A stretch of 63,808 nucleotides of DNA, filler included, from Collodictyon triciliatum (Eukaryota): NCBI GenBank assembly GCA_043381765.1. It is 29 parts of 29 records of this genome, joined end to end, with 100 filler letters (N's around TTAATTAATTAA, not from the genome) between each part and the next. Parts side by side here need not be neighbours in the genome. Positions count along the whole stretch, not along the records: positions 1 to 2,108 come from JBHJMP010009494.1; 28 more parts are not named here. One strand, written 5' to 3'. Positions 1 through 8,251 of this stretch are shown here, in pieces. Under the pieces are notes generated by a model that did not search any database, was not told where the DNA came from, and saw only the letters and a program-made list of their open reading frames with translations. The position numbers and the translations under genes are program-made. Within the stretch, counting starts at the first letter, position 1. Every line of letters begins with the position of its first letter.

Positions 1-20
1 ATGAAAAAAATACTACTTAC

Positions 21-1211
21 CTTGTTGCAGCTGATGCTCAGGTATGTGATATTTGTCATGCGCGTGATGTTGGGTGGAAGCGCAGAGATGTTCATTCCGT
101 AAAAATTCAGCGATTCAAAGTGGATTTGGGTTGCGTTCGGTGTCCAGTCTGGCTTCAGCATATCTGCATCCTATTTGTTATTTTTAGTATTCTTCGTTTT
201 TTTTTAAAAAAAAAACTTTTTATTTTATTATTGTATTACTATGACTTACTGGTACTTCGTATAGCTGCAACTTTCGGATGTGTTTTTTGTCTGCGCTTTT
301 GTTCCAGCACGGCAGGTTCGTGATTCCACGCGGTGCACGTTTGATGTTTATTTTGCCTCCATACTCGATGTAGAGATACTTCAGATTTCTGAGTGCCGTG
401 ATTTGCGGTGGAAGCTCCTCGATCTGCACACATCGTTGTTAGTCACTTTTCTTTCATAAAAAATAAAAAACAACAAAACACTTACAGGGTTGCTGTGAAC
501 AATAAGCACTTCGAGTCCCGTCAACCGCGATATTTCTGGCGGCAGCGACGAAAGCTGGTTGTTTTGAACATTAAGGTACATGAGTCCCGTCAACCGCGAT
601 ATTTCCGGCGGCAGCGACGAAAGCTGGTTGTTACCAACACCAAGCACTTCGAGTCCCGTCAACTGCGATATTTCCGGCGGCAGCGACGAAAGCTGGTTGC
701 TACTAACACTAAGCAACGTGAGTCCCGTCAACCGCCATATTTCCGGCGGCAGCGACGAAAGCTTGTTTCCATAGACATTAAGGTGCTTGAGTCCCGTCAA
801 CCGCCATATTTCCGGCGGCAGCAACGAAAGCTGGTTGCCACCAACATGAAGCCACGTGAGTCCCGTCAACTGCGATATTTCTGGCGGCAGCGACGAAAGC
901 TGGTTGTTTTGAACATCAAGGTACATGAGTCCCGTCAACTGCGATATTTCCGGTGGCAGCAACGAAAGCTGATTGACAAAAACATCAAGAGACTCGAGTC
1001 CCGTCAACTGCGATATTTCCGGCGGCAGCGACGAAAGCTGGTTTCCACCGAGCGACAACTTCACCAAGCCTGGCAGATCCCAGACACCAGGCGGCACAGA
1101 AGTCAGATTTTTAATATGGAGACTCAGCGCTGTGTGCTTTTCGAGCTCCGCTACGCTGCTGCCACCGACGATTTCTCGCAGCTTCTCGGGACGGGCGGCG
1201 CGATCAGCCAT
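21..1211 (-). CDS. Leucine-rich repeat protein, 5' part (3 exons, runs off contig)
   Basis: ATG at 1211 (MADRAARPEKLREIVGG). Exons 1211-486, 423-250 and 170-21 have GT-AG boundaries and keep frame. Eight 23-aa LRRs of the form LSSLPPEISQLTGLxxLxVxxNQ, plus degenerate LRRs (IEELPPQITALRNLKYLYI; ISALPPNITRMTNITYLSISCNK). Confidence 0.9.
486..1037 (-). repeat. Coding tandem array, 8 x 69 bp (LRR units)
   Basis: A near-invariant 42-mer GAGTCCCGTCAACTGCGATATTTCCGGCGGCAGCGACGAAAG starts at 513, 582, 651, 720, 789, 858, 927 and 996 (exact 69-bp period). The copies are separated by variable 27-mers. Confidence 0.97.
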
Positions 1212-2108
1212 GGCGGCGGAGGGGGACGGAAAGTGGTTGTGACGCTCTCTGAGGAAACCGGAGACGAATGAGTCGAGTTTTGTGTGAGCAGGTTGCGCAG
1301 TGTTTATTTGTTTGGTGTCGTATTGCTTGGGAATGGGTGAAGGTGACAGGTTGCAGATAACTGGTTGCGGTAGAAAGAAAAGCAGGAAAGTGAAGAGGGA
1401 CGAATCAACTGCGAAATAAATAGCAGAGATTCGGAGGTGCAATGGGGTTTCGAGCGTCGATAGTAAGGATAGCGGAGATAGCGGCGAAAACTGGTTGTGG
1501 CAGAAAGAAAAAAAGGTTGATTTTGAAGACTTTTAATGAAAATAACATGAAATACACAATAACTGGAAAATAAAAAAGTTTTGGCAAATTTCGACAAAAT
1601 CAAACAAAAAACATAAGATAAGACAAATTATGATTCAATAACATAAGACTTACAATATGCATCGCGCGTGGGCGGCAGAATGAAGCGGAAATTTTTGCCA
1701 AAATTCTGAAGAAAAATGGCAAAGTGGGATAATGACTCGTGAGAAAGCTTCGTGCGTGTCTGATTTGTAACGAAATAAAAGAGAAAATTCTGAAGACAGA
1801 AAACAAAAAAAAAACATATTGAAGTGGCAAAGTGAAGAGAAGACTTACTTGAGAGGCTTCGTGCGTGTCATAGTAAAGACACTGCATTATTCAGCCGAAT
1901 GCAAGTTGAAGGTTGTTAGAGTCTCGTGTGTGCTCGCACATGTGTGAGTGAAGCTTAAAAGACGACTTGAGGAAGGCAGTCGAGACAAAAAAACACTGCT
2001 GCTTGCTTGGTTGGTTGCTGGCTGCTGCTTCAAGCTGCTTCGCGCATCACGCGCGCGAAAAAAGGGGTGCCAACCTTTCTCTAGCTTTTGGATCATTGAA
2101 CGTGGAGC

Positions 2109-2208
2109 NNNNNNNNNNNNNNNNNNNNNNNNNNNNNNNNNNNNNNNNNNNNTTAATTAATTAANNNNNNNNNNNNNNNNNNNNNNNNNNNNNNNNNNNN
2201 NNNNNNNN
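2109..2208. other. Artificial contig-joining linker (N44-TTAATTAATTAA-N44), first of 28
   Basis: An identical 100-nt block recurs about every 2.2 kb, starting at 2109, 4317, 6525, 8732, 10940, 13146, 15356, 17562, 19768, 21973, 24219, 26422, 28625, 30828, 33031, 35234, 37436, 39638, 41839, 44034, 46234, 48434, 50631, 52829, 55027, 57224, 59419 and 61614. TTAATTAATTAA gives stops in all six frames. Adjacency across linkers has no biological meaning. Confidence 0.99.
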
Positions 2209-7584: not shown

Positions 7585-8251
7585 GCACGTTCCTCGTTAT
7601 GTATGCTGTAGTAAACGTTTTCCTTGGATTCAAGCTGCTTTGTCCACGGTTGCTTTGGGCACTGCAGTCACCTTGTATGGTGTCGGTTCTGCTGTTGCAG
7701 AGGGCGAAGTGAATAAAATTTTATCATTTAGTTTTGTGCTCTTTATACTTTAATAAGAATTAAGAGAGAATCAAATATGAGGCCAACTGTTATATTTTCT
7801 CTTCGCGCCAAACATTTTCTTGTGACGAGATTAAATTATTTTTTTAAATTAATATCTTCGCAGTGCAAAACTGAAGAGAGGAAAAAACATGCCGATTTTC
7901 GTAGCCGTATCCACGCGAACTACAACGACCGTATCAGAAAGTACAGCAGCCCCGAAAAGGTAAAATAAGGATGTCTACTTTGTCCGACGTGAATACACTC
8001 TTTATTTTTTTGTATGTTCATAGCCATCTGTAATAAATCGTCTTTTCAATATCACCAAAATATGGTTGTTGTAAAATGCAAGGTCGTTGACCCAGCACGA
8101 AGCGTTGATACCTACTTTTTCTTCTTTTTCTGTACGTAATCCCCAGGTGTTCAGAACATTCGCCTCCAAGAACCACGATGATGAGCCGGTGATGACACCT
8201 CTCGATTTTTTGCAGAGTCTCTACCCTTCGATTGACAAAAAATCAGACAAA
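7145..8251 (+). CDS. MICU1: MICU1-like mitochondrial calcium uptake protein, 5' part
   Basis: The Arg/Ala-rich N-terminus resembles a mitochondrial presequence (MHLLNAIRLASAIPRASGAAIRCI). A hydrophobic segment follows, then FRSRIHANYNDRIRKYSSPEK|VFRTFAS...VMTPLDFLQSL, matching the MICU1 YENRIRAYSTPDKIFRYFA...MTPEDF motif. EF-hand exons are not present. Confidence 0.8.

What the first reader, a model, noticed from the sequence alone, without database searches (positions are those of the whole stretch)
486..1037. LRR exon with constant-42/variable-27 cassette architecture, suggesting a diversifying receptor
Seen: 8 exact 69-bp units. The 42-nt part (LSSLPPEISQLTGL) differs by only a few bases among units, even at synonymous sites. 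The 27-nt part encodes ESLDVFVNQ, MYLDVQNNQ, TWLHVGGNQ, KHLNVYGNK, TLLSVSSNQ, EVLGVGNNQ, MYLNVQNNQ and EVLIVHSNP. Non-adjacent units 2 and 7 have nearly the same cassette, and units 6 and 8 share its 5' part. The array is much more GC-rich than its flanks. Established: the xxLxLxxN strand forms the concave ligand-binding face, and shuffled LRR modules underlie lamprey VLRs and brown-algal ROCO LRRs. Inference: the invariant blocks act as recombination anchors that swap variable cassettes within or between paralogues, giving a possible protist immune/recognition repertoire.
Basis: partly seen in the sequence, partly recalled or inferred. Interest (0 to 1): 0.7.

Follow-up and report, generated by a model that had tools for sequence, protein, structure and literature searches.

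The report
Hypervariable LRR array in protist gene
A spliced gene, likely from a Diphylleia-like freshwater flagellate, carries eight near-identical leucine-rich repeats that differ almost only at five predicted binding-face codons, likely because ordinary recombination keeps the scaffold uniform while selection diversifies the face, as in known fungal and algal candidate recognition proteins.

Summary
The eight 69-bp units are real (486-1037, minus strand, all in one exon of a spliced gene cut off by the end of a 2.1-kb contig). The variable part is not a 27-nt block: four of its nine codons are scaffold, nearly invariant even at silent sites; only five exposed beta-strand codons vary (pN 0.61 against pS 0.085 elsewhere; crude omega 13-57). 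One 68-nt tract was copied between units 2-3 and 7-8. Public contigs show related copies, spliced in RNA runs, with six other cassettes, none identical to the window's. Exon 2 ties the gene to a Diphylleia rotans LRR family with kinase, Roc-COR, RING or other tails; this gene's tail is missing. Best reading: an intracellular recognition domain under concerted evolution plus diversifying selection, the mode known from fungal HNWD/NLR repeats; a cyanobacterial plasmid LRR gene shows the same DNA signature. No evidence for programmed or somatic cassette swapping, but source reads were unavailable. The scan noted similar hypervariable LRR families before on other DNA of this genome.

The parts
486..1037 (-). 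Eight tandem 69-nt LRR units (23 aa) inside exon 1; scaffold nearly invariant, five exposed codons per unit hypervariable
1038..1211 (-). Start of the reading frame (ATG at 1211 in a GCCGCC-ATG-G context), N-terminal cap and one divergent LRR; no signal-peptide-like stretch
   Evidence: an ATG in like context is seen in a loose end of run X4 at 1223
872..939 (-). 68-nt tract (end of constant block 2, cassette 2, start of constant block 3) that matches 527-594 at 67 of 68 positions
527..594 (-). Partner tract (end of constant block 7, cassette 7, start of constant block 8); shares the private CCA codon of units 3 and 8
424..485 (-). Intron 1 (GT..AG, 62 nt, phase 0) directly after the last unit
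   Evidence: 4 contigs of runs X1 and X3 join position 423 to a terminal unit
250..423 (-). Exon 2 (58 aa): irregular LRR with the family motif AP-x-GI-T-x-LPCW shared with Diphylleia rotans LRR proteins
171..249 (-). Intron 2 (GT..AG, 79 nt)
   Evidence: skipped in 2 contigs of run X3
21..170 (-). Exon 3 (50 aa), a further divergent LRR
   Evidence: LRR_4 E 0.019, below the curated cut-off
1..20 (-). Start of intron 3; the gene runs off the contig, so the C-terminal domains are missing
1212..1490 (-). Probable 5' leader exon part; it is also open for 93 codons in frame with the LRR (unresolved whether coding)
1491..1653 (-). Inferred leader intron (GT..AG, AT-rich)
   Evidence: a contig of run X1 skips about this stretch with 14 other letters at the joint
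1760..1848 (-). Second inferred leader intron (GT..AG, AT-rich)
   Evidence: weak support from a joint 1710-1872 in run X3

Best explanation
This is exon 1 of a spliced gene from a multi-copy LRR family, likely of a collodictyonid flagellate, whose eight repeats share a near-identical scaffold and differ at five codons predicted to line the binding face, likely because ordinary homologous recombination (unequal crossing-over or gene conversion) homogenises the repeats while diversifying selection fixes new residues on the face of a likely intracellular recognition protein. Shown: the repeat anatomy, the excess of amino-acid change at the five codons, the splice junctions in related RNA contigs, other cassettes in related copies, kinship with D. 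rotans LRR proteins. Inferred: exchange between repeats (one clear 68-nt tract, mosaic sharing elsewhere); the 42-nt block works as the homology that recombination needs, simply because it is the longest identical stretch, not as a dedicated signal; selection rather than a targeted mutator; a cytosolic location; a C-terminal kinase, Roc-COR or similar output domain as in relatives; ligands from prey, endosymbionts, parasites or viruses.
For: Exposed codons pN 0.61, pS 0.42; all other codons pN 0.053, pS 0.085; exposed codons differ at positions 1, 2, 3 in 64, 69, 39% of pairs. Two-class codon model on a star tree: omega 37-57 at the five a-priori exposed codons, 0.6-0.8 elsewhere, p<=1e-12 in three subsets; using only the nine cassette codons omega 13-20, p<=4e-6. 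The four closest pairs examined differ in exposed codons by 13 residue changes and 0 purely silent codon changes. 68-nt tract shared by units 2-3 and 7-8; 12 of 21 informative site pairs are four-gamete incompatible. 103 contigs from 4 of 4 runs lie on the contig at 80-100% identity, over leader, exons and introns; six other cassettes readable, with the L, V, N scaffold kept. Exon 2 finds 62 proteins; of 20 looked up, 11 are D. rotans, 8 unnamed short NCBI records, 1 JGI; of 21 scanned with Pfam, 5 have Roc, 4 a kinase, 1 RING, 1 weak NYN. No hydrophobic N-terminus in the window protein or 13 relatives. The same combination is described for Podospora HNWD repeats (PMC1805685, passages) and fungal ANK/TPR NLR repeats (PMC4986451, passages).
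Against: Only 8 units: the omega values come from a star tree on recombining sequences and are crude; a simple count against all third positions inside the cassette is not significant (p 0.065). pS at exposed codons (0.42) is itself raised. All 5 variable sites of the constant block lie in CpG context, so parallel mutation could mimic recombination in the four-gamete test, although CpG is not depleted here (o/e 0.7-1.3). Cassette distance does not track the next constant block significantly (r 0.28, p 0.14). No run holds the source (best share of words 0.09), so unit order could be an assembly chimera of paralogues, and the copies may be alleles or other strains rather than paralogues. The tail of the gene and any ligand are unknown. 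93 in-frame codons upstream include a hydrophobic stretch (1.81), and 5 of 8 listed variants there are silent, so an N-terminal extension is not excluded.
Confidence: 0.72

Rival explanations
1. Programmed or somatic cassette exchange: cells shuffle 27-nt cassettes, or parts of them, from a pool of paralogues or silent donors into expressed genes through the constant blocks, giving a clone-level repertoire.
For: Long near-identical anchors; one cassette copied five units away; five different terminal cassettes before the same intron or exon 2 in related copies, two of them aligning best to the window's internal unit 3 at their 5' end; conserved leader and introns among copies.
Against: 0 of 6 readable cassettes equals a window cassette (tables were cut); no donor array, pseudogene or recombination signal on the contig; cassette halves do not co-vary; prokaryote arrays reuse cassettes too (64 of 200 arrays), so reuse needs no special machinery.
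Confidence: 0.07
2. Recent tandem expansion with relaxed constraint: the repeats are young copies, the exposed positions are merely free to drift, and no positive selection or recognition role is involved.
For: D. rotans relatives have 1-6 less uniform repeats here (scaffold identity 0.51 in P0126), so the expansion is lineage-specific; the test against third positions inside the cassette gives p 0.065.
Against: Free drift predicts pN about equal to pS; exposed pN is about 7 times pS elsewhere, neighbouring silent sites in L17, V19, N22 show 2 changes in 3 columns against 20 in 10 first and second positions, and omega=1 is rejected in all five fits.
Confidence: 0.08
3. Targeted mutagenesis or micro-conversion: a mutator or short templated patches rewrite the exposed codons (multi-base changes in one step), which inflates dN/dS without strong selection.
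For: Many exposed codons differ at 2-3 bases while adjacent codons are unchanged; position 18 is NNT in 8 of 8 and position 21 NNC in 7 of 8, superficially like diversity-generating retroelement targets.
Against: Four of five columns vary at all three positions and need an AAA template, and 8 adenines in the scaffold are invariant, against adenine-specific mutagenesis; variation follows codon role in the fold, which selection explains; no template repeat or reverse transcriptase on the contig.
Confidence: 0.08
4. Assembly artefact: the array is a path through collapsed 42-nt repeats that strings together cassettes of several paralogues, so the number and order of units (and the 2/7 tract) are not real.
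For: The window is a fragmented assembly of 2.1-kb contigs; the family is multi-copy; source reads were not available.
Against: Contigs of other runs span two or more tandem units (for example 167 nt in X3, 145 nt in X2); the frame is intact; an artefact would not alter the codon-level pattern, only the order.
Confidence: 0.05

Closest known systems
Fungal HNWD/NWD WD40 repeats (Podospora het-d, het-e) and ANK/TPR repeats of fungal NLRs with high internal conservation (PMC1805685, PMC4986451; passages read)
   Same: Near-identical tandem repeats in a candidate sensor domain, a few binding-face codons per repeat under positive selection flanking conserved scaffold codons, repeats exchanged within and probably between genes.
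   Different: LRR rather than WD40/ANK/TPR (that survey found no LRR in fungal NLRs); sensor is N-terminal; mean unit identity about 72% protein, 83% DNA, below the 85% cut-off used there; exchange between loci and any function are not shown here.
Uncharacterised LRR proteins of Diphylleia rotans (EukProt EP00002; P0122, P0126, P0129, P0131, P0136, P0139, P0140, P0155, P0156, P0158, P0160)
   Same: Same order of parts: short cap, regular LRRs, an NP-ending repeat, then the irregular repeat with the AP-x-GI-T-x-LPCW motif.
   Different: 39-59% identity over exon 2; their first LRR block has 1-6 less uniform repeats; they carry kinase, Roc-COR, RING or NYN tails, unknown for this gene.
Brown-algal ROCO type I LRR exons (PMC3341825, passages read) and Tetrahymena 90-bp LRR exon arrays (PMC6564038, passages read)
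   Same: Reshuffled LRR units; in Ectocarpus positive selection on concave-face residues; relatives of this gene include LRR-Roc-COR proteins.
   Different: There the repeats are encoded exon by exon and move with introns; here all eight lie in one exon with no introns, so exchange must rely on coding-sequence identity.
Prokaryote 23-residue LRR arrays (cyanobacterial LRR-Roc-COR and LRR-only genes, e.g. Acaryochloris marina S15 plasmid WP_212667173.1; Neochlamydia F-box-LRR families, PMC4209131 passages read)
   Same: Same repeat class; the Acaryochloris array has pS 0.08 in the scaffold and pN 0.44 at exposed codons, with reused cassettes.
   Different: Unrelated loci without introns; 18 of 19 distinct prokaryote arrays tested have much older scaffolds (pS 0.36-0.86); the Neochlamydia study reported no positive selection at whole-gene level.
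Lamprey and hagfish variable lymphocyte receptors (recalled; also mentioned in PMC3341825 passages)
   Same: Diversity on the concave face of LRR modules; short homologies between modules.
   Different: VLRs are surface or secreted, assembled somatically from donor cassettes into an incomplete germline gene; this gene is complete in its array, has no signal peptide at Met1, and no donors or somatic assembly were seen.

Membership tests
LRR superfamily, 23-residue SHOC2/Leptospira-like repeats | LxxLxLxxNxL motif at regular spacing, beta-strand plus helix solenoid | tested here: met
   Pfam LRR_8 E 7.6e-31; model pLDDT 76.6 with strand-helix repeat every 23 residues; best solved relatives Leptospira LIC12759, LRRD1, SHOC2
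Collodictyonid AP-x-GI-T-x-LPCW LRR family (defined here from D. rotans hits) | Irregular repeat with the motif after an NP-ending LRR | tested here: met
   Exon 2 carries it; 21 of 62 hits match the motif pattern, 0 of the 120 generic hits
Concerted-evolution/positive-selection repeat sensors (fungal HiC type) | Positive selection on a few binding-face codons per repeat | tested here: met
   (small sample, crude model; one conservative count p 0.065)
Concerted-evolution/positive-selection repeat sensors (fungal HiC type) | Over 85% identity between repeats over 100 residues (cut-off in PMC4986451) | tested here: not met
   About 72% protein and 83% DNA identity, worked out from the columns; the scaffold alone is about 90%
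Concerted-evolution/positive-selection repeat sensors (fungal HiC type) | Repeats exchanged within and between loci | tested here: inconclusive
   One 68-nt tract and incompatible sites within the gene; between loci only partial letters from other runs
NLR / STAND receptor | NACHT or NB-ARC domain in the same protein | not testable with these tools
   Gene runs off the contig; no genome held. Two Roc-COR relatives have AAA_16 hits below or at the cut-off
ROCO proteins | Roc-COR tandem | not testable with these tools
   C-terminus missing; 5 of 21 scanned hits have Roc
Brown-algal type I LRR exon shuffling | One LRR per exon, with inactive intronic copies | tested here: not met
   All eight units are in one uninterrupted exon
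Variable lymphocyte receptors | Signal peptide and surface or secreted form (recalled) | tested here: not met
   Maximum 19-residue hydropathy 0.35 in the first 40 residues; upstream in-frame extension unresolved
Variable lymphocyte receptors | Somatic assembly from donor cassettes (recalled) | not testable with these tools
   No source reads or clonal long reads
Diversity-generating retroelement target | Adenine-specific variation from a template repeat (recalled) | tested here: not met
   four of five columns vary at all three positions; 8 scaffold adenines invariant

The most novel reading that the evidence does not exclude
Collodictyonid flagellates run an anticipatory recognition repertoire: a large family of intracellular LRR sensors with shared leaders and intronless repeat arrays exchanges binding-face patches through the constant blocks fast enough that cells of one clone carry different receptors, coupled to kinase or Roc-COR outputs.
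Probability: 0.07. Interest if true: 0.85.

Novelty: new member of a known kind. Interest (0 to 1): 0.4.

Why it matters
It extends the 'uniform scaffold, selected binding face' mode of repeat evolution, known from fungal allorecognition and NLR genes and brown-algal ROCO genes, to an intronless LRR array in a deep-branching predatory flagellate lineage (CRuMs) for which my searches found no LRR report. It points to a strong arms race in a single-celled eukaryote and gives a compact, PCR-friendly locus for testing whether protists diversify recognition proteins within clones. The mechanism itself needs nothing new, and the same DNA signature turns up in a cyanobacterial plasmid gene.

Tried and rejected
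The 24-nt constant motif has 0 exact matches in JGI metagenome contigs and 0 in viral contigs. Exon 2 against metagenome contigs: 1 of 581 candidate stretches passed, an unrelated bacterial LRR. P0001 against GTDB contigs: 1 of 161, a generic Bacteroidetes LRR. Word-based search with exon 2 for longer proteins: 0 of 8 candidates. Searches with P0001 returned generic, mostly prokaryote LRR and Roc-COR proteins (each capped at 8000 candidates). No second LRR piece elsewhere in the window by tblastn. Rejected: special GC enrichment; adenine-specific (retroelement-type) mutagenesis; cassette-as-intact-module; one-repeat-per-exon shuffling; reading neighbouring contigs as genomic context. Sequence look-ups in earlier scan findings returned nothing. 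No complex prediction was run, as no ligand is known.

Full report
Context. The window is 29 contigs of about 2.1 kb joined by N-linker spacers; the finding lies in the first, 1-2108, and no genome is held. On the minus strand an ATG at 1211 opens a 242-codon exon ending at 486, followed by GT..AG introns at 485-424 and 249-171, exons 423-250 and 170-21, and a third intron that runs off the contig. The C-terminal domains are therefore missing.

Observation. The eight 69-nt units and their translations are as reported, and a 24-nt constant motif matches 8 times against 0 in 100 shuffles. Pairwise differences are 0-4 nt in the 42-nt part and 1-14 nt in the 27-nt part. But the 27-nt part holds four scaffold codons that hardly vary even silently (CTT 8 of 8, GTT 7 of 8, AAC 7 of 8, CAG 6 of 8). 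Variation is confined to codons 15, 16, 18, 20 and 21, the x positions of xxLxLxx. In the single-sequence model (pLDDT 76.6) these lie in or beside the strand of each repeat; that such residues face the concave binding surface is established knowledge and is stated for Ectocarpus LRRs in PMC3341825 (passages). GC content is that of a normal exon here.

Selection. Exposed codons: pN 0.61, pS 0.42; other codons: pN 0.053, pS 0.085. A two-class codon model on a star tree gives omega 51 (all 8 units), 37 (without unit 7) and 57 (without units 5, 7, 8), with omega=1 rejected at p 4e-19, 4e-16 and 1e-12; restricted to the nine cassette codons omega is 20 and 13, p 1e-7 and 4e-6. Minimal change counts are 20 in 10 first and second positions against 5 in 18 third positions elsewhere (p 8e-6), but against the 8 third positions inside the cassette p is 0.065. 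The estimates are crude: eight short, recombining units. An adenine-specific mutator does not fit.

Exchange. Units 2-3 and 7-8 share a 68-nt tract with one mismatch that contains the whole cassette and a codon private to units 3 and 8; it starts and ends in constant blocks. Twelve of 21 informative site pairs are four-gamete incompatible, with the caveat that all five variable sites of the constant block are in CpG context. The 5' and 3' halves of the cassettes do not co-vary (r 0.05, p 0.37) and cassette distance does not significantly follow the next constant block (r 0.28, p 0.14), so apart from the 2/7 pair the cassettes look like codon-level mosaics, not stable modules; power is low.

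Other copies. No run holds the source; 21 runs share 5-9% of words. I laid 4 of the 21 at 80% likeness: 34, 15, 37 and 17 contigs lay over leader, exons and introns. Intron 2 is skipped in 2 contigs of X3, and 4 contigs of X1 and X3 join exon 2 directly to a terminal unit. Translating by hand the letters printed at joints and loose ends gives six cassettes: AALSVFQNP (all read directly)..EQNP.YLNVFQNY and ...YVSLNP (first residues taken from the best-aligned window unit 3, beginning TWL or T), NELD.. before a VHSNP-like end in a DNA contig, and .YLNVRRNR. All keep L, V and N where read; none equals a window cassette. The tables were cut (266 variants, 42 loose ends and 85 pieces not shown), and contigs from mixed samples cannot separate paralogues from alleles or strains; run X3 alone holds at least two close versions of exon 2.

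Family and organism. Exon 2 found 62 proteins among 1.84 billion representatives; 21 carry the motif [AG]P-x-[GDE][IVML]-x-x-L-x-C[WYFG], absent from the 120 generic hits. Of 20 looked up, 11 are Diphylleia rotans transcript products, 8 are unnamed short NCBI records (52-64% identical in the best cases) and 1 is an unrelated JGI LRR. D. rotans is a collodictyonid (CRuMs), so the window likely comes from that group. Of 21 hits scanned with Pfam, 5 have Roc (4 with COR-A hits), 4 kinase, 1 RING, 1 weak NYN, 8 LRR only, and 2 were unrelated. Neither the window protein nor 13 relatives has a hydrophobic N-terminus. The closest layout, P0126, has six repeats at scaffold identity 0.51, so the uniform array is a lineage-specific expansion.

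How unusual. At DNA level 21 of 30 loci had six or more units (19 distinct arrays after two duplicates; 9 loci dropped as too short); 1 of 19, an Acaryochloris plasmid gene, matches the window's signature (ratio of exposed pN to scaffold pS 5.8 against 5.2), while 18 have ratios 0.6-1.3 with silent sites partly or fully saturated, which says little about selection. So the pattern is at the extreme end but recurs independently.

Literature. PMC1805685 (abstract and passages) describes concerted evolution plus positive selection at four codons per WD40 repeat in Podospora; PMC4986451 (passages) extends this to ANK and TPR repeats and found no LRR in fungal NLRs; PMC3341825 (passages) and PMC6564038 (passages) describe exon-based LRR shuffling in Ectocarpus and Tetrahymena; PMC4209131 (passages) found birth-and-death evolution without positive selection in chlamydial LRR families. 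PMC11378527 and the Diphyllatea papers were seen only as search listings. Searches for LRR or ROCO together with Collodictyon, Diphylleia, Diphyllatea or CRuMs listed 20 of 22 and 12 of 15 papers, none with LRR occurrences; searches found no description of such intronless arrays in a protist. The library is partial and supplements were not read. VLR and retroelement features are recalled.

Earlier scan notes on other pieces of this genome report similar hypervariable intracellular LRR families (e1-9808026, e1-7303456). I read them after forming the same view; I could not check whether they are the same subfamily (sequence look-ups empty).

Verdict. A real, strongly diversifying LRR array in a spliced, multi-copy collodictyonid-type gene family, best explained by ordinary repeat homogenisation plus diversifying selection on a likely intracellular recognition surface. 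New member of a known kind; a clone-level programmed repertoire is not excluded but has no direct support.

Noticed in passing
window 2109-2208 and 27 further spacers: The window is a size-sorted concatenation of 29 contigs joined by 100-base N spacers holding a stop-in-all-frames linker; most contigs end in simple repeats.
   Followed up: yes
window 25114-25600 and 38932-39637: Two separate contigs carry the same GC-rich 54-bp tandem repeat family (83-88% identical) with 4-5 nt insertions that shift frame; several frames are open; coding status unknown.
   Followed up: partly
window 1212-1490: 93 codons are open in frame upstream of the presumed start, with a hydrophobic stretch and a possible ATG at 1662 across the leader intron; 5 of 8 listed variants are silent in that frame, but a related RNA contig lacks that ATG junction.
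   Followed up: partly
window 1212-2108: The 5' leader and its introns are conserved at about 85-99% in contigs of all four runs laid, with the highest summed depth at 1847-2108 in X3; it contains internal duplications (two similar acceptor sites at 1361 and 1491).
   Followed up: partly
window 13663-14874 (-): Uninterrupted 404-codon frame for an NHL-repeat beta-propeller (Pfam NHL E 2.7e-15).
   Followed up: no
window 22656-23048 (-): Exon joining the end of a kinase domain to the start of an adenylate/guanylate cyclase domain (weak Pfam hits).
   Followed up: no
window 61991-62485 (+): TatD-family DNase exon (Pfam E 6.4e-12).
   Followed up: no
L028 2333-3643 (Acaryochloris marina S15 plasmid): LRR gene between transposase genes whose 14 repeats have near-invariant silent scaffold sites, variable exposed codons and reused cassettes, the same signature as the window.
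   Followed up: partly
proteins P0122, P0136, P0171, P0175: Relatives combine LRR, Roc-COR and, in some, DUF4062 and an AAA_16/NPHP3-like NTPase region: a ROCO-STAND-like architecture in a collodictyonid (P0122 and P0136 named as D. rotans).
   Followed up: no
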